32,000 bases of DNA. It comes from Synechococcus sp. A15-28 (lineage in GTDB: Bacteria; Cyanobacteriota; Cyanobacteriia; PCC-6307; Cyanobiaceae). The stretch spans positions 240,001-272,000 of the forward strand of contig NZ_CP047931.1 in the NCBI RefSeq assembly GCF_014280175.1, given 5' to 3'. Both the position numbers and the translations under genes were made by a program. Under the pieces are notes generated by a model that saw only the letters and a program-made list of their open reading frames with translations, was not told the DNA's origin and ran no database searches. This document shows, piece after piece, positions 10,687 to 26,799 of this stretch (its first letter is position 1; the number at the start of each line of letters is the position of its first letter).

Positions 10687-12234
10687 TCAACTGAGTCCTT
10701 CCCGTTTCGCTTCCTTCCAGGCCAACCGTGGAGCACTCCAGAGGGTGGCCAGCACCAGCGGTGTGACCGGCACCGCGGTGATCACGATGAAGGCCTGCAG
10801 GGCATCGATGGAGGTGCTGTCCCCCAGGCCGCTGCCGATGCGCAGCAGCACAAGTGTGAGGCTGCCGATCATCAAGGCCCAGAACAGTCGCAGGGGGGCC
10901 GGTGGTTCTGTGCGGCCGCTCACCACCATGGCGGCGGCGTAGCTCATGGAATCGGCACTGGTGCACATGAACAGCACCACCAGCACCAGACCGATCGGGA
11001 TCAGAAGGCCTGCCAGGGGGAGTTGGCTGAGGATCGCGAGCAAGGCCGCCGCGGCACCGTTCTGGGCCAGGGCCTCACTGATGCCAGCACCGGCCAGTTC
11101 CAGTTGCAGACCGGTGCCCCCCAGCAGCGTGAACCAGATGTTGGTCACGATCGGGCAGAGAATCGCCACGGCCAGCACCAGCTCGCGGATGGTTCGGCCA
11201 CGGCTGACGCCAGCGGTGAACAGACCCATCAGTGGGGCATAGCCGAGGAACCAGCCCCAGTAGAAAACGGTCCAGCCGTTGATCCAGTTGCCCGGCGCCA
11301 GATTGGGCGTCAGAGCCATCCGCGGCAGGTGGATCAGATACGTCAGGAAGCCGCTGAAAAAGTGCTGGATCAGCCACAGGCCAGGCCCGAGCAGCAGCAG
11401 CCCGGCCGCCATGGTGAGCGTCAGCCAGACATTGAGTTCCGACAGCCACTTGATCCCCTTCTGTATCCCGCTGACGGTGGAGCTGGCGAAGACAGCGGTG
11501 AGCAGCACCACCACCAGCGACTGCAGCCCGGCGCTGTCGCTGAGCCAGGGCAGCTGGCCGGCGGCGTTGCTGAGTTGAAGGGACAGAAACCCAAGGGGGC
11601 CGACGGTGCCGGCAATCGCCGCGACCACGGACAGTCCATCCGCGAGGTGACCGATCGGCCCATCCACCCAGCCCCGCGGCACGATGTTCACCAGCAACGT
11701 GCGTGGCCGCAGTGGCTCGCCCCGACGTTCCAGGATTGAAAAGGTGATCGTGGTGGTGGTGGCCACCAGGGCCCAGGCAAGAAAGCCCCAGTGCAGAAAG
11801 CTCACCGCCAGGGCAGGATCCACTGCTTCCGCGGTCCCCCCTTGGACGCCCGCAAACACGGGTGATGGAGTCTGGAAGTGATACAGCGGTTCGGCAGCGG
11901 ACCAGAAAACGCCACCCCCGGCCAGCAGGGTGCAGATCAGCACCGCGCACCAATCGAACAGTTTCAGACTTGGTTTGGTCTCAGCGCCACCAAGGCGAAC
12001 GTTGCCGACCGGGCTGATGGCAACGACCATAGCGATCACAAAGACCAACAGCACCATCCATTGCCAGAGCCCACCCAGGGCCGTGCTGACCACAGCCTTG
12101 CCGTTGTCGGTGAATTGCTTTGCCAGGGCCAGGTCAATGGCTGACACCACCAGAAAGATCAGCAGTGGCGTGGCACCGACCCAGAGGGGCGGCTGCCGCC
12201 ACCAGGACCGATCGCTCGTGGGATGGATGGTCAT
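10687..12234 (-). CDS. BCCT-family (betaine/carnitine/choline-type) secondary transporter
   Basis: BCCT signature WTVFYWGWFLGYAPLMGLFTAGVSRGRTIRE, plus GGGVFWSAAEPLYHF, and multiple TM segments. Candidate starts are ATG 12234 (4 nt after the upstream stop), ATG 12255 or GTG 12300. It is the last gene of a four-gene operon. Confidence 0.88.
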   Translation of the reverse strand: MTIHPTSDRSWWRQPPLWVGATPLLIFLVVSAIDLALAKQFTDNGKAVVSTALGGLWQWMVLLVFVIAMVVAISPVGNVRLGGAETKPSLKLFDWCAVLICTLLAGGGVFWSAAEPLYHFQTPSPVFAGVQGGTAEAVDPALAVSFLHWGFLAWALVATTTTITFSILERRGEPLRPRTLLVNIVPRGWVDGPIGHLADGLSVVAAIAGTVGPLGFLSLQLSNAAGQLPWLSDSAGLQSLVVVLLTAVFASSTVSGIQKGIKWLSELNVWLTLTMAAGLLLLGPGLWLIQHFFSGFLTYLIHLPRMALTPNLAPGNWINGWTVFYWGWFLGYAPLMGLFTAGVSRGRTIRELVLAVAILCPIVTNIWFTLLGGTGLQLELAGAGISEALAQNGAAAALLAILSQLPLAGLLIPIGLVLVVLFMCTSADSMSYAAAMVVSGRTEPPAPLRLFWALMIGSLTLVLLRIGSGLGDSTSIDALQAFIVITAVPVTPLVLATLWSAPRLAWKEAKREGLS

Positions 12235-12238
12235 GCTT

Positions 12239-13429
12239 TCAGGCTCGGACGGCATCGCGCTGGTGGCTCCAGCAGGAAAGGTCAACGGCAGGCTGCTCAC
12301 CGCAGGCCAACCGCGCCAGGGAATCTCCGATCAGCGGTGCGAACTTGAAGGCCTGACCGGAGCCACCGGCGAACAGGCTGAGGCTGGGGCTGAGGCGATC
12401 CAGCACAAAATTCACATCGCTGGCCATGGAGTACGGGCTCATCACCGTTTCCACGCGCTCTTGAACGCCCTCCACGTTGTTGAACAGGAAGGTGTCGAGC
12501 AGTTCCACGAGCCTTGGCGGCGCCTCAGTGGCCATGGCGTTGGGCTCGGCCACGCGGAGCTCCTGGGGCGCCCAGTCGATCCCGGCTTTGATCCGGGGCC
12601 GGCCGTCTTCGGTGTGGCTCAGCACCGGGAATGCGTAGTAGAGACCGCCATCATCGCCCCGTTCGCGCTGGAAGCAGAACCACTGGGGATAACGATCGGC
12701 CAAGGCCGGATCGACGGTGTAGTGGGCCCAGAGCATCGGCCAGACCTCCAGTTTCGGTGCCAGACCCAGGGGGGCCAGCAGCAGCTGACTCCAGATGCCG
12801 CTGGCCACCACCACCTGGCCAGCACCGATGTGATGGCCGTTCTCCAGAGTCACACCGGTCCCGTCGGCATCGATGCCTGCCACGGGGCAATGCTCGATCA
12901 ATTGGTGACCGGCCTGCCGTGCCGTGCGGGTCCAGTGGGCGATCACCTTGTCGCTGCGGACCGCGCCGGCGGTGGGTTCAAACAACCCCGTGAAATCCGA
13001 CTTGGGCTTCAGTGGGAACCGTGATCTGATCGCATCGGCATCAAGGGCTTCATAGGGAATGCCCTGATCGTCCATCACCCGGCGGGCACCGGGGATCGAG
13101 CCTTCAATGGTCTCCTCGTCCCAGCTTTCGCCGTAAAACAGCAGCCCGTGGGTTTCCCGGAGCTGCTCACCGGCATGGGCTTCCTCCTCCCGCCACAGGC
13201 GGTTGGCCTCCTGGGCCAGGCGACAGAGCACCGGGTCGGAGTACATCTCCCGGAACATCCTGGTTTCGCCGAAGCTGCTGGCTTTGGCATGGGCCAGGGT
13301 CTTGGCTTCCAGGAGCACCACATCGTTGATGCCGCGGCGCGCCAGGGAGGCGGCGCAGCTGAGGCCCGCCATGCCGCCACCGACGATGACGATGGCCGCT
13401 TGGGTCGGCAGGGAAGAGGATTGGGTCAT
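12239..13429 (-). CDS. FAD-dependent amine oxidoreductase, monomeric sarcosine oxidase / pipecolate oxidase (DAO) family
   Basis: N-terminal dinucleotide fold AIVIVGGGMAGLSCAASLARRGINDVVLLEA. MSOX-like ASSFGETRMFREMY and C-terminal GGSGQAFKFAPLIGDSLA. Its ATG overlaps the upstream stop (ATGA at 13426-13429). Substrate unknown. Confidence 0.8.
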   Translation of the reverse strand: MTQSSSLPTQAAIVIVGGGMAGLSCAASLARRGINDVVLLEAKTLAHAKASSFGETRMFREMYSDPVLCRLAQEANRLWREEEAHAGEQLRETHGLLFYGESWDEETIEGSIPGARRVMDDQGIPYEALDADAIRSRFPLKPKSDFTGLFEPTAGAVRSDKVIAHWTRTARQAGHQLIEHCPVAGIDADGTGVTLENGHHIGAGQVVVASGIWSQLLLAPLGLAPKLEVWPMLWAHYTVDPALADRYPQWFCFQRERGDDGGLYYAFPVLSHTEDGRPRIKAGIDWAPQELRVAEPNAMATEAPPRLVELLDTFLFNNVEGVQERVETVMSPYSMASDVNFVLDRLSPSLSLFAGGSGQAFKFAPLIGDSLARLACGEQPAVDLSCWSHQRDAVRA

Positions 13430-14484
13430 GGGGTGTCCCCGAAGCTGAGGCCGATGGGATCGGTGGATGGTGTGGCGGCCACTTCGTCCAGGGCGGCGCC
13501 AACGGACAGGCCCTGATCGCGCTGGTTGAGGAAGTCATTGGCTCGTCTGCGGACCTCCTGACGGACGAAGGCGTAAACGTCCGTGGCCCCAGCACCCTTC
13601 CAGGCATCCGGTGAGAAGCGCTCAATCGAGTCGGCGATCACCGCACCGGCGTTCACCAGGGGGTCGGGCAGCACCCGGATTCCCCGGCGCCGCAGGTCAT
13701 CGGCCAGGTGCGGACTCTGGAAAGGGGCATTGGCCGCAGGCACCACGGAGGTGACCCGCAAGGCAGAGGCCATCTCCGCGTTGATCAGGCCGGAAATGGA
13801 ACAGGGCAGCAGCAGGTCGAGTTTCAATTCCCACCAGGGGCAGCCCTGGGCCAGGGGTGTGGCGCCGGGGAACCCTGCGCGTTCGCGGCTGAGATCCACT
13901 GTGAACACGGTCCAGCCATGCTCAACCAGCGTGCGGGCCACGGTGCCGCCCACCGCCCCGCAGCCGTGCACCAGGGCCTGGCCGGGTTTCGCATCTTTGA
14001 GTTCCGCTTCGAGCACCGCTTCCACGGCGCCCAGGGTGCCGTGGGCTGTGGCGGCGCTGGCATCCACCGGGCTGCCGACGGCAGCCAGCACATGGGGCGT
14101 GAGCTCCGTGAGTCGCTCCATGTCCTCGAGGCTGGTGTTGAGATCACATCCGGTGATCATCGCGCCGTCCAGGGACTGCAGCAGTTCTGCGGTCACGTTG
14201 ATCAGCTCATCCTTTACGGCGGCGGGTTCCTTGGCCCGAGCCACGATCTTGCCGCCGGCGAAACCGGTGCCGTAGAGATCGTGCTTGTGGGTCATCAGCC
14301 CGGCCAGCCGCTCGCCGTCGGCGATGCAGGCTTCATCACTGGGGTAGTTCAGCAGCCGCAGGCCACCGTTGGCAGGACGCTTGGCATCGGTGTCCTCGGC
14401 CACCACGAACACCGAGAGATGTTCGGAGACGTGTTCCGCCAGCACCGAAACAGTCGGTGTGGGTCTGGTTGTGGTGGTCGTCAT
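13426..14484 (-). CDS. Amino-acid dehydrogenase of the Glu/Leu/Phe/Val dehydrogenase superfamily (LeuDH/PheDH-like size)
   Basis: GGLRLLNYPSDEACIADGERLAGLMTHKHDLYGTGFAGGKIVA aligns with the LeuDH GGxRmxxY...MTYKNA...GGGK region, and both catalytic/substrate Lys are kept. NAD(P) fold VHGCGAVGGTVARTLVEHGWTVFTVD. The ATG at 14484 (MTTTTTRPT) overlaps the upstream TGA by 1 nt (TGATG). Substrate specificity cannot be read by eye. Confidence 0.8.
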   Translation of the reverse strand: MTTTTTRPTPTVSVLAEHVSEHLSVFVVAEDTDAKRPANGGLRLLNYPSDEACIADGERLAGLMTHKHDLYGTGFAGGKIVARAKEPAAVKDELINVTAELLQSLDGAMITGCDLNTSLEDMERLTELTPHVLAAVGSPVDASAATAHGTLGAVEAVLEAELKDAKPGQALVHGCGAVGGTVARTLVEHGWTVFTVDLSRERAGFPGATPLAQGCPWWELKLDLLLPCSISGLINAEMASALRVTSVVPAANAPFQSPHLADDLRRRGIRVLPDPLVNAGAVIADSIERFSPDAWKGAGATDVYAFVRQEVRRRANDFLNQRDQGLSVGAALDEVAATPSTDPIGLSFGDTP

Positions 14485-15521
14485 CAGGCGACCTTCTCCA
14501 TCATCTGATGGTGCTCGACGTAGTCCAGGCTCCATTCACTCGGAGCTTCGGCGATGCGCTGCTCCAGTCGTGCATAGACCTGATCGGCCACGGCATCTCC
14601 AGCAACGCTGGCAAAGCTGTGACGGCTCCAGCTGCGAATGGTGGCCATCAGTCCAGCGGCAAAGCTGGCGGTGTCACCATCCTCATTCCAACGGCGGCGG
14701 TACGGACATTTCACGTACACCGTGTGCTCGTCGACGAGTCGCAGACCATTGCGGTAAGGAGCCGAAGCGGTGTCCTTCAACGGCGCCATGAATTCTTCAG
14801 GCGACTTGTAGAAGTTCAGGACCGTGCCCTTGCGGTACTGCTCTTCGCTGATCAGGCCCTCATCGGCCATGCCGCGCCAGATCTGATGCAGCTGGTCGTG
14901 AACGTTGCGGGTTTCACCGCCGTTGTGGCCGAGATAGCGCCCTTCACCATCCCGGGACAGGTTCACCGTCAGCAGGCGGCCACCGACTTTGAGTTCCTTG
15001 CTGCGCAGCTCGAGAACGTAGGTCCAGTCCTTGAGTGCTTGGGCCGTGAAGCGCTGGAGGGCTTCTCCATCGCCGGAGGCGAGCACGTGAGTGTGGGTGT
15101 CCAAGGGTCCGGGCGACTCACTCAGCCAGTGCATGGCTGTGGCGGAGAAGCCGAAACTCACGGTGTTCGGTGCCACCGATGGCTCGTAGAAGCTGCGGGC
15201 ACTGACGAGCACGGTCGGCTTGGGGGCCCTGGGGATCTGCAGAGCCAGGTTCTCAGCCAGGGCCACATTGTCGTTGCTCGGCAGGTCATTGCCGATCAGC
15301 GTCAAGTGGGCATCGGGCTGGTTGGCGTGCAGGCGGTCCAGCACCTGATGCCAGAGACCGACGGCAGTGCCGCCATCGGCAGCTCCGTAATCGATCAGAA
15401 CATGACTGTCTTGGGCAGTCAGTTGGTCAACACAAGTCAAGGCCCAGTCCGAGGCGGCTTCGATGCAGAGGAGAGCGCCTTCGGTCTGCGCGCTGTAACC
15501 CGTGGTCATGGCGATGGCCAT
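14484..15521 (-). CDS. SABATH-like (Methyltransf_7 / SAM-dependent carboxyl- and N-methyltransferase family) methyltransferase
   Basis: The family motif order is kept: VLIDYGAADGGTAV (SAM motif I), LIGNDLPSNDN (NDLPxNDFN-like), SFYEPSVAPNTVSFGFSATAMHWLSE (SFYxRLFP...SLHWLS-like) and LELRSKELKVGGRLL. ATG at 15521 (alternative at 15509). It is the first gene of the operon. Confidence 0.75.
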   Translation of the reverse strand: MAIAMTTGYSAQTEGALLCIEAASDWALTCVDQLTAQDSHVLIDYGAADGGTAVGLWHQVLDRLHANQPDAHLTLIGNDLPSNDNVALAENLALQIPRAPKPTVLVSARSFYEPSVAPNTVSFGFSATAMHWLSESPGPLDTHTHVLASGDGEALQRFTAQALKDWTYVLELRSKELKVGGRLLTVNLSRDGEGRYLGHNGGETRNVHDQLHQIWRGMADEGLISEEQYRKGTVLNFYKSPEEFMAPLKDTASAPYRNGLRLVDEHTVYVKCPYRRRWNEDGDTASFAAGLMATIRSWSRHSFASVAGDAVADQVYARLEQRIAEAPSEWSLDYVEHHQMMEKVA

Positions 15522-15526
15522 CGACC

Positions 15527-15580
15527 TTGTCAGCGGCAGTAATTACCGTACAGGACGAATTTGTCAGAGCTTCGTGACAG
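15527..15580 (-). promoter_or_regulatory. Repeated TTGTCAG / CTGTCAC elements in the 70-bp leader upstream of the methyltransferase operon (possible operator)
   Basis: On the plus strand TTGTCAG occurs at 15527-15533 and 15561-15567, 34 bp apart. The inverted partner GTGACAG at 15574-15580 forms TGTCA-N8-TGACA with the second copy. No convincing -10/-35 pair is seen. Confidence 0.2.
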
Positions 15581-15591
15581 AGAGCACCTGT

Positions 15592-16167
15592 TTAGGAGAG
15601 CAGGGCTCGTAACCGAGGTTCCAGCAGGGCAAAGGCCCTACCGCGGTGGCCATGGGCTTTCTTGTCGCTCAGTGGCATCTCAGCGAAGGTGAGATCGGTT
15701 CCGCTCACTTCAAAGATCGGGTCGTAGCCAAAACCTCCTTCGCCGCGGGGGAGGGTGGTGATGCGGCCATCACAACGTCCCTCCACCTCAATCAACACGC
15801 TGCCATCGGGAGCGGCAACGCACAGCGCTGCGCAGAACTGCGCGTCACGCTCGCTGGTCTTGGACAGAGCGCTCAAAAGTTTGTTGATTCGTTCCGGGTC
15901 TGTCGGGGCGTACCGGGCTGAGTGCACGCCCGGAGCTCCCCCGAGGGCGTTCACGCTGAGTCCGGAATCATCGGCCAAAGCCCAGTGGCCGGTGGTGGTG
16001 GCCACCGCCTTGGCCTTGATCCGGGCATTGGCTGCAAAGGTGCTGCCGGTCTCTTCGACGTCCATACCCTCGGGCTGAGGCTGGACGTCGAGAGGAAGGT
16101 GTTGGAGCAAGCCCTGAAATTCACGGATCTTGCCGGCGTTTCCGCTGGCGATCACCAGGGTCCTCAT
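15592..16167 (-). CDS. rdgB: Non-canonical purine NTP pyrophosphatase (RdgB/HAM1 family)
   Basis: ATG at 16167 (MRTLVIASGNAGKIREF) and C-terminal GFGYDPIF. Its start overlaps the upstream stop (ATGA at 16164-16167). The track ORF extended to 16284 is an upstream run-on. Confidence 0.88.
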   Translation of the reverse strand: MRTLVIASGNAGKIREFQGLLQHLPLDVQPQPEGMDVEETGSTFAANARIKAKAVATTTGHWALADDSGLSVNALGGAPGVHSARYAPTDPERINKLLSALSKTSERDAQFCAALCVAAPDGSVLIEVEGRCDGRITTLPRGEGGFGYDPIFEVSGTDLTFAEMPLSDKKAHGHRGRAFALLEPRLRALLS

Positions 16168-21126: not shown

Positions 21127-21199
21127 GGGGGTCTAGCAATCTGGTGAATGCAGCGAACTCATAATTCGCCTAAGGCGAGTTCGATCCTCGCGACCCCCA
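21127..21199 (+). tRNA. tRNA with anticodon CAT: elongator type, either Met or lysidine-dependent Ile2, not the initiator
   Basis: Manual cloverleaf: acceptor GGGGGTC/GACCCCC, discriminator A73, and D arm GCAA-TCTGGTGA-ATGC with a 13:22 mismatch. Anticodon arm GCGAA-CTCATAA-TTCGC, variable loop CTAAG, and T arm GCGAG-TTCGATC-CTCGC. G1-C72 is paired and the anticodon stem lacks the three G-C pairs of an initiator. CCA is not encoded. Confidence 0.85.
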
Positions 21200-23556: not shown

Positions 23557-26500
23557 TCAGACCAGCCCTTCCTGTTCGGCCAGTTCCCGCAATGCCGCCA
23601 CCTGCCAACGGCGGCACTCAATGGGTGATGCCTTATAGAACTGCGTCCAGGCTCGGGCCTTGTGCTGGCTGTAGCTCGATGCGGTCAAGGCGGGATGGGT
23701 TTGTTGCCAGCCCACTCGCACGGCGTGGCCGATCACCACATCCAAGGCCAGATCGTCGTCGAACTGCACCTCGGGATTGGCTTCCACGAAAGCCATCAAG
23801 GACAAAAGGCACTCCGTGCAGAGCTGCCGGTACTCGGGCGCCTGGATGCGACTGAGCAGGTGCTCCACCAATGTGGCGAAGTTCTTTTCCCCCGCTGTCT
23901 TCTCGAGGATCAGGCGGCTGTTCAGTCGATTGCGGCGTTCCAGCTTGTCGCCGATCACAAGGCCGCGGCAGTGCTGCAGCAGCGACCAGATGCCGGCATA
24001 GAAATCTCTGGGCACCTTCTGCAGAGACCCCAGGCGGATGCGGTGCTGAAGCCAGTCGCCACCGCTGGGGGGCTGGTCGAGGGGATCCGGCACCCTCCAC
24101 TGCACTCGGCCGGTGACATGCAGCTGCTCTCCGCGCTGCAGTGCCGCCCGGGCGTGCTCAACATCGCTGAGCAGTTGCCTGAGCCGATCCCGGATCAGAT
24201 GCGGTGAGCTGCTGCATAACGCTTCAAAGGCCTCGTCCTGGCTGAGCTGCTGCTCCGCCGCCAGTTCAGAGGTGAGCAGCAGCAGCAGTTGGCTGAGTTG
24301 CAGGGTGAGGATCCCTTTCAGCAATCCGGGATCGCGCCGGGCCACGCCGTCCAGGGCCAGCAGCAGCTCCTGTTCCAGCATCCGCTCGCGGCCATCCACC
24401 CCGCTGGTCCGTGCAATCCGTTCGGCGATGGCGCTGCTGTCCAGCGGATGGCTGAGCCGTGCATCGGCGCTGTAGTTCCGGCCCACGACCACTTGTTTCT
24501 GACGCACCAACAGATCGGTCAGGGCGTCTTCCAGCTGAGGATGGACCATGCCCATCGCACCGGCGCAGCGCCGCACCACACTCCAGTCCTGGCAGCGCAG
24601 TCCGCGGTGATACACCTCCTCGAGCAATTGTTGAATCGTCACGCTGCGGCCCTGCGGACTGGTCTCGATGGCGCTGGCTCCGAAGCGTCGTTGCAATAGA
24701 TCGAGAACGTCGGCCTGTTCATGCAGGGACTGGGTGTCCCACAACCGTGTCCGCAGAACGTCAGCATCGGTTTCATCGAGCTCCTGTTCTTCGGCGGCGG
24801 TGAGATCGCGCAGGTCGGTGGCCTCCTGGAGCAGATCGGATCGCTTCCGCTCGAGGGCCGACGGGTTGTTGTCATCGTCGGCGTACCCCTCTCGCAAGGG
24901 CACCCAACGGGCCTGCCTGGCCAGCTGACTCAGCCGGTCGAACTGCACAGGAATCTCCCCGATACGACCCGTGAGCAGCGTTTGTCCCAGCTGCAGGAAC
25001 ACCTCGGGGTGATGCTGGAACGATTCAGCGTTGATGGGAATCAGCAGCAGTGGGAGCCCAGGGCCTCGCCAGTGCCGCCTCAGCAGATGGAGTTCATCCA
25101 CCACGCTGTCCTCCAGCTGAAGTGGATCGTCGGCCAGATAGCTGATGCTGTCTTCCAGCACCGCCGCCGTGAAGGCCAGGGTCTGTTCCCCCTGGCGGTA
25201 GAGCCGTGCCGAGTCCTCGGTTTCAATGCGCTGCAGGGGTTTGCCACTCAAGCCGAGCCTCGCGTTGGCCCCGATGCAGCACCATTGGGCTGCCAGAGCA
25301 TCCGAGGGCTGGATGGTGATCTCGTCACCCCTGTCCAGCGGCAGTCCGGCATCGATCAGAGCCTGTCGAACGGAGGCCGTTTCGGCTGCAAAAGCCACGA
25401 GCACCGCATCAGTTCCGAGCCCCTGGGCGTTTCGCCGTTCGCAGGGATCGAGATCCTCAGGGGTGATCAATCCCTCCAGCAGCATTTCGCCAAGCCAGGC
25501 CAGACTTTGGGTCCAGATCAGCGGAAGATTGCTGTTGGCCTGACGAGGTTGGCTGCCTGGCCTGCTCCGTTCCGCCTCGACCCGGTCGGCGGCCACTTGA
25601 TACAGCTCGGGATAGAGCGCTTCCCCATCCCGATGCACGGCCAGGGCTGTTAGTTTGTTCTGCCAGGTGCGGGCGTCCTGCCAGCGTTCCTCGCAGCAGG
25701 CGGTCACCAGTTCAAAAGCCAGAAACAGGGGCCACTCCGATTCAATCCCTTCGAACTGGGCCAGCTCCTCCGGTTCGTAGTGGAGACGATTGACGTCTTC
25801 CACGGCGGTCTGATGGCCGTCCCGAAGAAAACGCTTGTAGCCATAGGCGCCGCCCAGTTCCCGTCGCACCCGTCGCAGAGTTCGCTGCACCAGGTCCCGG
25901 TCCTCGATGGCCCAGGCCGGGAAGCCCACCACGGACAGGCAGGCGCTGTCGGCTTCCTTGCTGGAGGATTCCCGCGGCAGCAGGCTCTCCAGGGCCCGCC
26001 GCAGACGGACCACAGCCCCCTGGGGAATCAGCAGCTGGCACGACCCATCGCCATGGACCCCGAATAGGTCCAGGTCCTCCAGGGCTTCCAGGGCGGCCTT
26101 CGCCATGCCGATGGAGCTGGAATTGCGCTCCGGCTTGCCGTTGTTTCCCTTGTCACCCCGTTCCCAGATGCCGTAGTCGGGGGTCCGATACGCCCGGGCG
26201 ACGTAATACACCAGGTTCTGGATGAAATCCACCTCATCCCGGCTCTGGATCACCGTGCAGCCACCGCGGGTGAGTTGAGCCAGCTGCAGCAGAAAGAGAG
26301 AGGTGGCATCGAGCTGGAGATGTCCCCATGCGTCATCTGCCACCACCGGATCACCGCTGCTGCTGTCGTATTTCGCGTGCAGAGCGTCGAGGGGGTCGAG
26401 GCTGACCTTGAAGCGCTCCACTTTGTTGGCCTGCCGCAGCATGGCCCGCAGCAATCCCCGCATCAGGGCGATCACCCGTTGCTCCAGCTCCCAGGCCCGC

Positions 26501-26751
26501 CGATCGTGGGAGCCACGGCGGCGACGGTGTGCCAGGGCCAGGGCCCAGACGCACTGCACGGAGTACACACAGTCCCGCACCCAGGCATCGCCGTAGTTGC
26601 CGTGAACGGTGTGGGCCGTGCTGGCGGGCAGCAACCCGCTGACGGGGTCCTGGCGCTGCAGCACCACTTGCTCGATCGAATGATCGAGACGCTCCAGGAT
26701 GTTGTCCCGCTGATCCTGATCCGGTTGGGTCTGTGTTGCCGTCACCACCAT
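23557..26751 (-). CDS. Large GH15 (glucoamylase-like) domain protein resembling the phosphorylase kinase alpha/beta regulatory subunit
   Basis: N-terminal GH15-like motifs GNYGDAWVRDCVYSV, HLQLDATSLFLLQLAQ and YGIWERGDKGNNG, followed by about 600 aa of helical extension. The track start 26784 is TTG; the first ATG is at 26751 (MVVTATQ). Confidence 0.65.
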   Translation of the reverse strand: MVVTATQTQPDQDQRDNILERLDHSIEQVVLQRQDPVSGLLPASTAHTVHGNYGDAWVRDCVYSVQCVWALALAHRRRRGSHDRRAWELEQRVIALMRGLLRAMLRQANKVERFKVSLDPLDALHAKYDSSSGDPVVADDAWGHLQLDATSLFLLQLAQLTRGGCTVIQSRDEVDFIQNLVYYVARAYRTPDYGIWERGDKGNNGKPERNSSSIGMAKAALEALEDLDLFGVHGDGSCQLLIPQGAVVRLRRALESLLPRESSSKEADSACLSVVGFPAWAIEDRDLVQRTLRRVRRELGGAYGYKRFLRDGHQTAVEDVNRLHYEPEELAQFEGIESEWPLFLAFELVTACCEERWQDARTWQNKLTALAVHRDGEALYPELYQVAADRVEAERSRPGSQPRQANSNLPLIWTQSLAWLGEMLLEGLITPEDLDPCERRNAQGLGTDAVLVAFAAETASVRQALIDAGLPLDRGDEITIQPSDALAAQWCCIGANARLGLSGKPLQRIETEDSARLYRQGEQTLAFTAAVLEDSISYLADDPLQLEDSVVDELHLLRRHWRGPGLPLLLIPINAESFQHHPEVFLQLGQTLLTGRIGEIPVQFDRLSQLARQARWVPLREGYADDDNNPSALERKRSDLLQEATDLRDLTAAEEQELDETDADVLRTRLWDTQSLHEQADVLDLLQRRFGASAIETSPQGRSVTIQQLLEEVYHRGLRCQDWSVVRRCAGAMGMVHPQLEDALTDLLVRQKQVVVGRNYSADARLSHPLDSSAIAERIARTSGVDGRERMLEQELLLALDGVARRDPGLLKGILTLQLSQLLLLLTSELAAEQQLSQDEAFEALCSSSPHLIRDRLRQLLSDVEHARAALQRGEQLHVTGRVQWRVPDPLDQPPSGGDWLQHRIRLGSLQKVPRDFYAGIWSLLQHCRGLVIGDKLERRNRLNSRLILEKTAGEKNFATLVEHLLSRIQAPEYRQLCTECLLSLMAFVEANPEVQFDDDLALDVVIGHAVRVGWQQTHPALTASSYSQHKARAWTQFYKASPIECRRWQVAALRELAEQEGLV

Positions 26752-26799
26752 GACCCGCCTTGTCACCGCTTCTAAATTCTCCAATGCAGCCCTTCGGCG

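What the first reader, a model, noticed from the sequence alone, without database searches (positions are those of the whole stretch)
10687..15591. Coupled operon of a SABATH-like methyltransferase, an ELFV amino-acid dehydrogenase, a sarcosine/pipecolate-oxidase-like flavoenzyme and a BCCT transporter: candidate uncharacterised N-methylated solute pathway (homarine hypothesis)
Seen in sequence: four minus-strand genes are joined by TGATG (14482-14486), ATGA (13426-13429) and a gap of 4 nt or less (12235-12238). They are therefore almost certainly made as one unit. Each product has clear family motifs, listed under features.

Established knowledge:
- BCCT carriers move betaine-like quaternary or N-methylated solutes.
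- MSOX-family flavoenzymes oxidise secondary or cyclic amines such as sarcosine, pipecolate and proline.
- ELFV dehydrogenases interconvert alpha-amino and alpha-keto acids.
- SABATH-family enzymes include N-methyltransferases that act on pyridine carboxylates (plant nicotinate N-methyltransferases, i.e. trigonelline synthases) and on xanthines.
- An FAD-dependent dehydrogenase aromatises a lysine-derived piperideine-2-carboxylate ring in actinomycete 3-hydroxypicolinate biosynthesis.

Inference: this set is not the known cyanobacterial glycine-betaine route (glycine/sarcosine N-methyltransferases), nor the glucosylglycerol, glucosylglycerate or sucrose routes. Three enzymes would suffice for the following steps:
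- L-lysine is deaminated by the dehydrogenase to 2-oxo-6-aminohexanoate, which cyclises to delta1-piperideine-2-carboxylate.
- The flavoenzyme oxidises that ring to picolinate.
- The methyltransferase N-methylates picolinate to homarine.
- The BCCT carrier recaptures the solute.

As far as I recall, metabolomic surveys report homarine as abundant in cultured marine Synechococcus, with no assigned biosynthetic genes. Two alternatives remain open. The product could be another N-methyl or methyl-ester amino-acid derivative. The locus could also be catabolic, importing and demethylating a solute.
Basis: partly seen in the sequence, partly recalled or inferred. Interest (0 to 1): 0.85.

Follow-up and report, generated by a model that had tools for sequence, protein, structure and literature searches.

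The report
Candidate homarine biosynthesis operon in Synechococcus
Four tightly coupled genes in a marine Synechococcus look like a three-enzyme route from lysine to the abundant ocean metabolite homarine plus a transporter for it, which would give that long-known compound its first biosynthetic genes, though no enzyme activity has been tested.

Summary
Four minus-strand genes are joined by TGATG, ATGA and a 4-nt gap: methyltransferase (MT) 14484-15521, ELFV dehydrogenase (DH) 13426-14484, MSOX-family flavoenzyme (OX) 12239-13429 and BCCT carrier 10687-12234. All hit the predicted Pfam families.

New evidence favours the homarine reading.
- MT-DH-OX order is kept in about 50 Synechococcus species, high-light Prochlorococcus (no BCCT), Myxococcota and a Bacteroidota MAG.
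- The three enzymes occur fused: DH-OX-MT in Shewanella surugensis, OX-MT in Porphyridium, DH-MT in Pterosperma.
- The closest solved structure to OX is NikD, which makes picolinate from piperideine-2-carboxylate. OX keeps NikD's Glu101, Asp276 and Tyr258.
- DH has Asn and Asp at the two specificity positions that are Leu40/Val294 in LeuDH and Lys89/Ser380 in GluDH. This suggests a cationic substrate such as lysine.
- The MT family also occurs in diatoms and marine invertebrates, which are known homarine sources.
- Both Synechococcus strains shown to contain homarine carry the cluster. In WH8102 it is mildly salt-induced.

The held literature assigns no homarine biosynthesis genes. Product identity remains inferred (confidence about 0.55). 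Caveats: the WH8102 DH is annotated as two ORFs, and WH7803 makes about 100-fold less homarine.

The parts
14484..15521 (-). SABATH-like SAM-dependent methyltransferase (345 aa); proposed picolinate N-methyltransferase (homarine synthase)
   Evidence: PF03492, E 8.8e-22. Best solved relative is the Mycobacterium fatty-acid O-methyltransferase 5f2k, E 4e-17; SAMT 1m6e scores E 6e-7. The family has 28 invariant columns from cyanobacteria to diatoms and invertebrates, including DxGxADGG and S.TAMHWL.
13426..14484 (-). ELFV-family amino-acid dehydrogenase (352 aa from the ATG at 14484); proposed L-lysine 2-(alpha-)dehydrogenase that yields 2-oxo-6-aminohexanoate, which cyclises to piperideine-2-carboxylate
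   Evidence: PF00208 and PF02812. The family profile scores LeuDH and PheDH at 143 bits and GluDH at 69. Catalytic Lys68, Lys80 and Asp115 equivalents are kept. Specificity positions: Leu40 is Asn (PANGG), Ala113 is Gly (TGCDLN), Val294 is Asp (NAGAVIADSIE). Asn40 and Asp294 are invariant across the 74 aligned sequences; Gly113 is invariant in the 11 diverse sequences of A3.
12239..13429 (-). MSOX-family FAD enzyme (396 aa), NikD-like; proposed oxidase or dehydrogenase that aromatises piperideine-2-carboxylate to picolinate
   Evidence: PF01266, E 1.2e-46. The family profile scores NikD 195 bits, MSOX 168, TrSOX 167 and MTOX 151. It keeps NikD Arg50/Arg53, Glu101 (ETIEGSIPG), Tyr258, Asp276 (GIDW) and Lys358 (AFKF). 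It lacks the covalent-FAD Cys and has Gln at the Trp355 position.
10687..12234 (-). BCCT-family secondary transporter (about 515 aa from the ATG at 12234; alternative in-frame starts at 12255 and 12300); proposed (re)uptake carrier for the pathway's betaine product
   Evidence: PF02028, E 2.5e-128. It falls below NCBIfam's glycine-betaine BCCT equivalog cutoff, 297 against 650 bits. It is co-located in Synechococcus, Myxococcota and a Bacteroidota MAG but absent from the Prochlorococcus loci. The orthologue is annotated betT (SYNW0229) in WH8102 and betP in WH7803 (PMC2874817, PMC7393227).
14482..14486 (-). TGATG overlap of MT stop and DH start
   Evidence: Read.
13426..13429 (-). ATGA overlap of DH stop and OX start
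   Evidence: Read.
12235..12238 (-). 4-nt spacer between the OX stop (12239-12241) and the BCCT ATG (12232-12234)
   Evidence: Read.
15522..15591 (-). 70-nt non-coding stretch upstream of MT; possible promoter or 5' UTR (not shown)
   Evidence: Read. No consensus promoter was found.

Best explanation
The locus is a biosynthetic operon for homarine (N-methylpicolinate), a pyridinium betaine, together with a transporter for it.

Proposed steps, all inferred.
1. The ELFV dehydrogenase oxidatively deaminates L-lysine at C2. The product, 2-oxo-6-aminohexanoate, cyclises spontaneously to delta1-piperideine-2-carboxylate (P2C).
2. The NikD-like flavoenzyme carries out the four-electron aromatisation of P2C to picolinate. 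This also pulls the unfavourable dehydrogenase equilibrium forward.
3. The SABATH-like methyltransferase transfers a methyl group from SAM to the ring nitrogen, giving homarine.
4. The BCCT carrier takes up or recaptures the solute.

MT-DH-OX is the functional core. The carrier is an accessory that some lineages lack. The same MT family probably methylates picolinate made by other routes in organisms that have only the MT.

What is shown: gene coupling, family membership, conservation of the cassette, fusion proteins, active-site residue patterns, presence in homarine-containing strains and mild salt induction. What is inferred: every substrate, the product, and N- rather than O-methylation.
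For: Translational coupling. The junctions were read directly.

Conservation of the cassette.
- MT-DH-OX-BCCT order is kept in all complete Synechococcus loci, in 6 Myxococcota MAGs (42-55% identity) and in a Roseivirgaceae MAG.
- High-light Prochlorococcus has MT-DH-OX only. Its neighbouring genes are unrelated.

Rosetta-stone fusions.
- DH-OX-MT: P0269, P0341, and P0272 from Shewanella surugensis.
- OX-MT: P0314 from Porphyridium purpureum, plus P0252, P0259 and P0267.
- DH-MT: P0330 from Pterosperma, plus P0306.
- A eukaryotic contig (L082) carries the MT gene head-to-head with a DH-OX fusion gene that has the same signature residues.

OX resembles NikD.
- NikD is the best PDB hit: 119.5 bits for the single sequence and 195 bits for the family profile, against 168 for MSOX.
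- NikD-type Glu101, Asp276 (His in MSOX and MTOX) and Tyr258 are invariant in the family.
- NikD converts lysine-derived P2C to picolinate (PMC4021061).

DH pocket.
- Asn and Asp sit at the two canonical side-chain determinants. These positions are Lys89/Ser380 in GluDH and Leu40/Val294 in LeuDH.
- Gly sits at position 113, as in PheDH and TrpDH.
- Asn40 and Asp294 are invariant across the 74 aligned sequences and Gly113 in the 11 of A3; all three recur in the fusion proteins.

MT distribution matches known homarine sources.
- Diatoms: Cyclotella, Fragilariopsis, Pseudo-nitzschia, Cylindrotheca, Nitzschia, Thalassiothrix.
- Marine invertebrates: Lingula, Priapulus, Orbicella.
- In Ca. Electrothrix the MT sits 8 nt downstream of quinolinate synthase NadA, which hints at a pyridine-carboxylate substrate.

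Link to homarine in Synechococcus.
- Homarine was measured in WH8102 (up to 18 mM) and WH7803 (about 0.2 mM) (PMC8269262, PMC10134881).
- WH7803 carries the cluster (L009).
- WH8102 carries BCCT, solA, 'leucine dehydrogenase' and hypothetical genes as the predicted operon SYNW0229-0233 (PMC2874817, suppl. 6).
- SYNW0230, SYNW0232 and SYNW0233 rise by log2 0.40-0.47 after +0.125 M NaCl at 1% FDR (suppl. 10).

Literature. No paper in the held library assigns homarine biosynthesis genes.
Against: - No enzyme activity, metabolite or mutant data exist for any gene of the family.
- The MT is too distant from characterised SABATH enzymes to tell N- from O-methylation. The carboxylate-binding Gln25 of SAMT has no clear equivalent, on a by-eye alignment.
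- OX lacks NikD's covalent-FAD Cys321 and Trp355.
- No ELFV enzyme acting on lysine C2 is known to me.
- WH7803 has an intact cluster yet about 100-fold less homarine than WH8102 under the same conditions (PMC8269262).
- In the 2003 WH8102 annotation the DH region is two ORFs, SYNW0231 and SYNW0232. This may be a frameshift. I could not retrieve the WH8102 DNA, and WH8102 did not appear in the genome scan.
- Salt induction in WH8102 is small, about 1.35-fold.
- MT homologues occur in some prasinophytes and a dinoflagellate, groups reported as not producing homarine in the few strains tested (PMC13236597).
- Classical labelling work in shrimp proposed different precursors: glycine plus succinyl-CoA, or quinolinate.
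Confidence: 0.55

Rival explanations
1. The three enzymes form one biosynthetic pathway from a basic amino acid, as proposed, but the end product is not homarine. Candidates are methyl picolinate (O-methylation), an ornithine-derived N-methylpyrrole-2-carboxylate, an N-methylated partly oxidised piperideine or pipecolate derivative, or another methylated solute.
For: - The closest characterised relatives of the MT are carboxyl O-methyltransferases (5f2k, 1m6e).
- The DH pocket (Asn/Asp) would also fit ornithine or arginine.
- OX differs from NikD at Cys321 and Trp355, so it might stop after a two-electron oxidation.
- WH7803 has the cluster but little homarine (PMC8269262).
Against: - A BCCT carrier is co-located in most lineages. 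This fits a cationic-nitrogen betaine better than a neutral ester or pyrrole.
- NikD-type Glu101, Asp276 and Tyr258 are invariant.
- The MT family's distribution tracks known homarine producers.
- Homarine is the one abundant pyridine betaine measured in Synechococcus (PMC8269262).
Confidence: 0.25
2. The locus is catabolic. The BCCT carrier imports an N-methylated amino acid or betaine, the MSOX-like enzyme demethylates it, and the dehydrogenase releases ammonium for nitrogen scavenging.
For: - MSOX-family enzymes classically demethylate sarcosine or N-methyl-tryptophan. The best NCBIfam hit of OX is N-methyl-L-tryptophan oxidase (185 bits).
- ELFV enzymes deaminate amino acids.
- A BCCT importer lies in the same operon.
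Against: - A SAM-dependent MT has no role in such a route, yet it is the most constant member and is fused to DH and OX in several organisms.
- Prochlorococcus keeps MT-DH-OX without any transporter.
- OX has Asp, as in NikD, where demethylating MSOX and MTOX have His269, and it scores below the MTOX and MSOX cutoffs.
- The WH8102 genes rise on salt upshift together with ggpS and proV.
Confidence: 0.07
3. The pathway acts on tryptophan or indole compounds, for example Trp to indole-3-pyruvate or IAA-type acids and their methyl esters, as the best-named database hits suggest.
For: The best NCBIfam names are tryptophan dehydrogenase ScyB for DH and N-methyl-L-tryptophan oxidase for OX. The SABATH family includes IAA carboxyl methyltransferase (3b5i hit).
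Against: - All these scores are far below the curated cutoffs: ScyB 94 against 600, MTOX 185 against 257.
- The DH profile scores LeuDH and PheDH (143 bits) above TrpDH (130).
- An invariant Asp/Asn pocket is unsuited to an indole ring.
- The OX profile ranks NikD well above MTOX, 195 against 151 bits.
Confidence: 0.05

Closest known systems
NikC/NikD picolinate branch of nikkomycin biosynthesis (Streptomyces tendae, S. ansochromogenes)
   Same: Lysine is converted to piperideine-2-carboxylate, and an MSOX-family flavoenzyme aromatises it to picolinate (PMC4021061). NikD is the best solved match to OX. Glu101, Tyr258, Asp276, Arg53 and Lys358 equivalents are conserved.
   Different: - The first step here would use an NAD(P)-dependent ELFV dehydrogenase, not the PLP-dependent aminotransferase NikC.
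- OX lacks the covalent-FAD cysteine and Trp355.
- Picolinate would be N-methylated to an osmolyte rather than CoA-activated for an antibiotic.
- The setting is an operon in a photoautotroph with a BCCT carrier.
Plant SABATH methyltransferases, including coffee trigonelline synthases (nicotinate N-methyltransferases) and caffeine-pathway N-methyltransferases
   Same: Both belong to Pfam family PF03492. The conserved Trp of the substrate pocket is present in the H-W-L-S motif. From my own knowledge, there is precedent for N-methylation of a pyridine carboxylate within this fold.
   Different: The MT shows only distant similarity to SAMT (E 6e-7 against the PDB). It belongs to a separate, mostly marine clade with its own invariant motifs (YS..T.G, CPY, T.R.WS, MDY). 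Its activity is untested.
Glycine betaine synthesis and uptake in marine Synechococcus (gbmt1/gbmt2 with ProVWX)
   Same: Both make a SAM-dependent N-methylated zwitterionic compatible solute in the same organisms, with a cognate uptake system. Both respond to salt shock in WH8102 (PMC2874817).
   Different: The enzyme families and precursor differ: glycine methylated three times there, against ring formation from lysine and a single methylation here. The carrier is a BCCT rather than an ABC transporter.
Leucine, phenylalanine and tryptophan dehydrogenases (ELFV family)
   Same: Same fold and size. Catalytic Lys68, Lys80 and Asp115 equivalents are present, and these enzymes are the best PDB matches.
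   Different: The side-chain pocket has Asn, Gly and Asp in place of Leu40, Ala113 and Val294. This mirrors, with opposite charge, the Lys89/Ser380 pair of glutamate dehydrogenase.
homABCDER homarine catabolic operon of marine heterotrophs (PMC13236597)
   Same: It concerns the same metabolite. It also includes a predicted betaine-type transporter, HomT.
   Different: It runs in the opposite direction: ring opening to N-methylglutamate in heterotrophs.

Membership tests
SABATH / Methyltransf_7 (PF03492) | Profile match above Pfam's gathering score over most of the domain | tested here: met
   78.1 bits against a cutoff of 29.8; residues 44-328 match profile positions 20-319 of 335.
SABATH / Methyltransf_7 (PF03492) | Substrate-pocket Trp (SAMT Trp151) in the S-x-x-x-x-x-W-L-S motif | tested here: met
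   SATAMHWLS aligns to SAMT SSYSLMWLS. His131, Trp132 and Leu133 are invariant in 13 diverse members.
SABATH / Methyltransf_7 (PF03492) | Carboxylate-binding Gln25 (SAMT) in the N-terminal lid, typical of O-methylating members | tested here: inconclusive
   The N-terminal region was not aligned by HMMER. A by-eye alignment of GYSAQTEGA to SYAMNSFIQ puts Ala at this position, but that alignment is unreliable.
SABATH / Methyltransf_7 (PF03492) | N- versus O-methylation, and picolinate as substrate | not testable with these tools
   Needs an enzyme assay.
Leu/Val/Phe/Trp dehydrogenases (ELFV) | Both ELFV Pfam domains and the catalytic Lys68, Lys80 and Asp115 (LeuDH numbering) | tested here: met
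   PF00208 at 55.6 bits and PF02812 at 29.9 bits. MTHKHDL, GGKIV and TGCDLN align to these residues and are invariant.
Leu/Val/Phe/Trp dehydrogenases (ELFV) | Hydrophobic side-chain pocket (Leu40, Ala113, Val291, Val294 in LeuDH) | tested here: not met
   The residues are Asn, Gly, Val and Asp instead. Asn40 and Asp294 are invariant in 74 sequences; Gly113 is invariant in the 11 sequences of A3.
Tryptophan dehydrogenase ScyB (NCBIfam NF035922) | Score at or above the equivalog cutoff | tested here: not met
   94.3 bits against a cutoff of 600.
Monomeric sarcosine oxidase / N-methyltryptophan oxidase | Curated equivalog or subfamily score | tested here: not met
   MTOX NF008425: 185 against 257 bits. 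soxA_mon TIGR01377: 140 against 480 bits.
Monomeric sarcosine oxidase / N-methyltryptophan oxidase | Covalent 8-alpha-S-cysteinyl FAD (MSOX Cys315) and active-site His269 | tested here: not met
   Ser or Val aligns at the Cys position (SPYSM). Asp aligns at the His269 position (GIDW).
NikD-type P2C-aromatising oxidase | Best similarity to NikD among solved MSOX-family members | tested here: met
   The profile scores NikD 195 bits, MSOX 168, TrSOX 167 and MTOX 151.
NikD-type P2C-aromatising oxidase | NikD active-site residues Arg53, Glu101, Tyr258, Asp276 and Lys358 | tested here: met
   All align and are invariant in the family. The roles of these residues in NikD are from my memory of the NikD literature; those papers could not be opened.
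NikD-type P2C-aromatising oxidase | Covalent FAD at Cys321 and the stacking residue Trp355 | tested here: not met
   Cys321 aligns to Val or Ser. Trp355 aligns to Gln, or to Arg in the fusion proteins.
BCCT transporters | Full-length PF02028 match | tested here: met
   429 bits; residues 41-528 match profile positions 4-483 of 485.
Glycine-betaine BCCT (NCBIfam NF047988) / BetT / CaiT equivalogs | Score at or above the equivalog cutoff | tested here: not met
   297 against 650 bits, 204 against 695 bits and 202 against 541 bits respectively. Substrate is therefore not assigned.

The most novel reading that the evidence does not exclude
This widespread, mostly marine MT family is the general homarine synthase (picolinate N-methyltransferase) of ocean life. 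In cyanobacteria, marine bacteria and algae it works with two partners in a three-enzyme lysine-to-homarine route: the first known ELFV-type L-lysine 2-dehydrogenase and a non-covalent-flavin NikD-like aromatising enzyme. In animals, and possibly in cable bacteria, the MT acts alone on picolinate or quinolinate-derived substrate.
Probability: 0.45. Interest if true: 0.9.

Novelty: new variant of a known kind. Interest (0 to 1): 0.82.

Why it matters
- Homarine has been known since the 1930s. It is among the more abundant nitrogen-containing osmolytes in surface-ocean particles. It is also an infochemical and morphogen in marine animals and a growth substrate for heterotrophic bacteria.
- A catabolic operon for it was described only in 2026 (PMC13236597). 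I found no biosynthetic genes assigned in the held literature.
- A validated gene set would let homarine production be mapped in metagenomes and metatranscriptomes. It would link lysine and SAM budgets to osmolyte flux in Synechococcus and diatoms, and it would explain strain differences.
- It would add two new enzyme specificities: an ELFV lysine 2-dehydrogenase and a marine SABATH-type pyridine N-methyltransferase.
- The single-polypeptide DH-OX-MT proteins offer a one-gene experimental test.

Tried and rejected
- **WH8102 presence.** I tried to decide this from the genome-contig scan. WH8102 was not among the 79 loci, and I first read that as absence. PMC2874817 shows WH8102 has the BCCT/solA/LeuDH-like/hypothetical operon SYNW0229-0233, so the scan list cannot be used as evidence of absence. 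The same applies to other strains, including Prochlorococcus MED4 and NATL2A.
- **Cluster look-ups.** Ten Synechococcus MT variants named RS9909, WH8101, MVIR-18-1 and ROS8604 but not WH8102. I could not retrieve WH8102 DNA to check the apparently split DH.
- **NikD papers.** The structure and mechanism papers could not be opened, nor could Scanlan 2009. The roles of NikD residues therefore rest on memory plus the PDB mutant entries.
- **HomT.** Its family could not be checked because no supplements are held.
- **Signals in the DNA.** Promoter and terminator scans and Rfam found nothing.
- **Literature search.** One broad search returned only chromium-picolinate nutrition papers.
- **Readings considered and rejected.** The tryptophan/indole reading suggested by NCBIfam names, the catabolic reading and chance adjacency are treated under the rival explanations.
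- **Not done.** I did not run structure prediction, because residue-level geometry cannot be inspected with these tools.

Full report
**Observation**

The four minus-strand ORFs exist as described.
- MT: 14484-15521.
- DH: 13426-14484, using the family-conserved ATG.
- OX: 12239-13429.
- BCCT: 10687 to an ATG at 12234, with longer in-frame alternatives at 12255 and 12300.

I read the junctions directly. TGATG lies at 14486-14482. ATGA lies at 13429-13426. A 4-nt spacer separates the OX stop from the BCCT ATG.

Pfam gives exactly the predicted families, all above gathering scores: PF03492, PF00208 with PF02812, PF01266 and PF02028. No NCBIfam equivalog cutoff is reached by any of the four proteins. 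Their precise functions are therefore not assigned by current curated models.

The window is from a marine Synechococcus. Its MT is 93% identical to that of MIT S9220. The flanking genes are ordinary housekeeping genes: photolyase, fabI, hisB, an RPE65-type carotenoid oxygenase, Ham1/RdgB and phosphoglucomutase.

**The three enzymes form one conserved module**

I fetched 79 loci encoding MT relatives and scored them with the window's proteins.
- Every complete Synechococcus locus has MT-DH-OX-BCCT in the same order. This covers about 50 species, including WH7803, RCC307 and WH8017. The cassette always sits after PGM-RdgB.
- The same four-gene order recurs in six Myxococcota MAGs at only 42-55% identity, and in a Roseivirgaceae (Bacteroidota) MAG.
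- High-light Prochlorococcus (HNLC1/2, MIT9201, MIT9322 and single-cell genomes) has MT-DH-OX but no carrier. The adjacent genes there are unrelated.

A search of 1.84 billion cluster representatives with the MT found multidomain proteins. Pfam resolves these as fusions.
- DH-OX-MT: P0269, P0272 and P0341.
- OX-MT: P0252, P0259, P0267 and P0314.
- DH-MT: P0306 and P0330.

Named examples are Shewanella surugensis (tri-fusion), the red alga Porphyridium purpureum (OX-MT) and the prasinophyte Pterosperma (DH-MT). A eukaryotic metagenome contig carries the MT gene head-to-head with a DH-OX fusion gene. Fusions and conserved order in unrelated lineages are strong evidence that the three enzymes act in one pathway. 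A streamlined phototroph keeps the enzymes without an importer, and a SAM-dependent MT is the constant member. Both points argue for synthesis rather than catabolism.

**What the enzymes look like**

*OX.* NikD is the best solved relative, at 119.5 bits. With a profile of 12 diverse family members, NikD leads clearly: 195 bits, against 168 for MSOX, 167 for TrSOX and 151 for MTOX. NikD is the MSOX-like enzyme that converts lysine-derived piperideine-2-carboxylate to picolinic acid in nikkomycin biosynthesis (PMC4021061).

In the residue-level alignment and the family alignments, OX keeps several NikD residues.
- Arg50 and Arg53.
- Glu101, within ETIEGSIPG. MSOX and MTOX have no counterpart.
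- Tyr258.
- Asp276, in GIDW. MSOX and MTOX have the catalytic His here.
- Lys358, in AFKF.

OX lacks the cysteine that carries covalent FAD. It has Gln where NikD has Trp355, or Arg in the fusion proteins. The functional roles I attach to these NikD residues come from memory of the NikD literature, which I could not open.

*DH.* It belongs to the Leu/Phe/Val/Trp dehydrogenase branch. Its profile scores 143 bits to LeuDH and PheDH, against 69 to GluDH. The catalytic Lys68, Lys80 and Asp115 equivalents are present.

The two classical side-chain determinants differ. These are Lys89/Ser380 in GluDH and Leu40/Val294 in LeuDH (established structural knowledge). Here they are Asn (PANGG) and Asp (NAGAVIADSIE), and position 113 is Gly, as in Phe and Trp dehydrogenases. 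Asn40 and Asp294 are invariant in the 74 aligned sequences, Gly113 in the 11 of A3, and all three recur in the fusions. An acidic residue at the far end of an enlarged pocket is what one would expect for a cationic, long side chain such as lysine. This is inference, not a test.

*MT.* It is a distant SABATH-fold enzyme. Its nearest solved structure is a mycobacterial fatty-acid O-methyltransferase (E 4e-17), and SAMT scores E 6e-7. It belongs to a well-defined clade with 28 invariant positions shared from cyanobacteria to animals. Sequence alone cannot tell N- from O-methylation.

*BCCT.* It is a full-length family member that falls below the curated glycine-betaine, choline and carnitine models.

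**Links to homarine**

[quoted passage not shown] After a published 25-fold correction, the values are up to 18 mM in WH8102 and about 0.2 mM in WH7803 (PMC8269262, PMC10134881).

WH7803 carries the cassette (L009). Its BCCT is the 'betP' reported as induced at low temperature (PMC7393227).

WH8102 did not appear in my genome scan. Mao et al., however, list SYNW0229 (betT, BCCT), SYNW0230 (solA, putative sarcosine oxidase), SYNW0231 (hypothetical), SYNW0232 (possible leucine dehydrogenase) and SYNW0233 (conserved hypothetical) as one predicted operon. In their salt-shock microarray (+0.125 M NaCl, 2 h, 1% FDR), SYNW0230, SYNW0232 and SYNW0233 rise by log2 0.45, 0.40 and 0.47. They rise alongside ggpS and proV (PMC2874817, suppl. 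6 and 10).

The MT family is also conserved in two other kinds of organism.
- Diatoms: Cyclotella, Cylindrotheca, Pseudo-nitzschia, Fragilariopsis, Nitzschia, Thalassiothrix and Corethron, together with the bolidophyte Triparma. Diatoms are known homarine producers (PMC8269262, PMC12817926).
- Marine invertebrates: the brachiopod Lingula, Priapulus and the coral Orbicella. Homarine is a classic metabolite of marine invertebrates; the one paper I opened on this covers the hydroid Hydractinia (bioRxiv 10.1101/2024.10.30.621027).

In the cable bacterium Ca. Electrothrix, an MT orthologue lies 8 nt downstream of quinolinate synthase NadA. This is an independent hint that the family acts on pyridine carboxylates. 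Organisms with only the MT could obtain picolinate by other routes. Animals, for example, make it from tryptophan catabolism (my own knowledge).

**Mechanism proposed**

- L-lysine is deaminated at C2 by the DH.
- The resulting 2-oxo-6-aminohexanoate cyclises to P2C.
- OX aromatises P2C to picolinate, pulling the equilibrium forward.
- The MT N-methylates picolinate to homarine.
- The BCCT carrier takes up or recaptures the solute, as ProVWX and GgtABCD do for other cyanobacterial osmolytes.

Only the coupling, family membership, conservation, fusions, residue patterns, strain occurrence and salt response are shown. All chemistry is inferred.

**Caveats**

- In the WH8102 annotation the DH region is two ORFs. 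KEGG maps both to leucine-dehydrogenase pathways. If this is a real frameshift in the strongest homarine producer, the DH would be dispensable or the hypothesis weakened. I could not obtain the DNA.
- WH7803 has an intact cluster but far less homarine.
- Salt induction is modest.
- OX lacks two NikD features.
- The MT could O-methylate.
- Some prasinophytes and a dinoflagellate have MT homologues, although the few tested members of those groups lacked homarine (PMC13236597).
- Early tracer work in shrimp suggested other precursors.
- The genome scan list cannot be used for absence calls.

**Comparison with known systems and novelty**

The closest known chemistry is the NikC/NikD picolinate branch of nikkomycin biosynthesis. 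Here a dehydrogenase replaces the aminotransferase, and a methyltransferase replaces the CoA ligase. The closest physiological analogue is glycine-betaine synthesis plus uptake in the same cyanobacteria.

All four proteins belong to known families, and the genes are annotated generically as betT/betP, solA, 'leucine dehydrogenase' and 'SAM-dependent methyltransferase'. I found no paper in the held library, up to mid-2026, that assigns them a pathway or assigns any homarine biosynthesis genes. The 2026 homarine catabolism paper treats production as known only at the organism level.

I therefore rate this a new variant of a known kind: an osmolyte operon built from known folds with new specificities. 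My confidence in the homarine assignment is about 0.55. Interest is high because the hypothesis is specific, ecologically important and testable with one expression construct.

Noticed in passing
L075:6865-9047 (Ca. Electrothrix gigas): An MT orthologue (39% identity, same invariant motifs) lies 8 nt downstream of quinolinate synthase NadA on the same strand. No DH, OX or BCCT is nearby. This suggests a link to pyridine-carboxylate metabolism, but it is a single instance.
   Followed up: partly
Proteins P0269, P0272, P0341 (DH-OX-MT); P0252, P0259, P0267, P0314 (OX-MT); P0306, P0330 (DH-MT): Natural fusion proteins combine the three enzyme domains in different ways. Named examples are Shewanella surugensis, Porphyridium purpureum and Pterosperma sp. 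The domain order DH-OX-MT differs from the cyanobacterial gene order MT-DH-OX.
   Followed up: yes
L082:3985-9170 and L083 (eukaryotic metagenome contigs): The MT gene lies divergently next to an intron-containing gene that encodes a DH-OX fusion with the same signature residues. This is a bidirectional gene pair in an unidentified eukaryote, with NFACT genes nearby.
   Followed up: partly
WH8102 SYNW0231/SYNW0232 (literature only; PMC2874817 suppl. 6 and 11): Other genomes have one DH gene here. The original WH8102 annotation has two ORFs, both mapped to leucine-dehydrogenase KEGG pathways. This may be a frameshift or an annotation artefact. WH8102 was also missing from the genome-contig hits.
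   Followed up: partly
L080:250-11298 (Pseudomonadota MAG): A stand-alone MT homologue sits near an Ldh_2-family gene. From my own knowledge, that family contains the P2C/Pyr2C reductase DpkA. Also nearby are a class-III aminotransferase, a BKACE enzyme, an EamA exporter and a WYL regulator. The neighbourhood has a lysine or pipecolate-metabolism flavour.
   Followed up: no
L017 (record titled MAG: Salipiger bermudensis); also cluster member P0183, labelled Propionibacteriaceae: These records carry full Synechococcus-type synteny (PGM-RdgB-MT-DH-OX-BCCT-CCO-HisB at 74-90% identity). They are almost certainly mis-binned or mislabelled picocyanobacterial contigs.
   Followed up: no
window 16164-16167: The phosphoglucomutase stop and the Ham1/RdgB start overlap as ATGA. 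The two genes upstream of the cassette, on the same strand, are therefore also translationally coupled. Only a 70-nt gap (15522-15591) separates them from MT, so a longer transcript is possible.
   Followed up: partly
window 11200-11300 (BCCT TM8 signature GWTVFYWGWFLGYAPLMG): Compared with my recollection of the BetP signature (W-A-W-W-I-S-W-S-P), two of the tryptophan-box residues that contact the trimethylammonium group appear as Phe and Tyr. This may reflect a planar pyridinium substrate. It rests on memory and was not tested.
   Followed up: no
window 23557-26784 (-): A large 1075-aa protein combines a GH15 glucoamylase-like domain with a phosphorylase-b-kinase C-terminal domain (KPBB_C). 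It is unrelated to the finding.
   Followed up: no
window 21127-21199 (+): This is a tRNA-Met (CAT) gene, the only RNA gene detected. There were no Rfam hits at gathering threshold anywhere in the window.
   Followed up: yes
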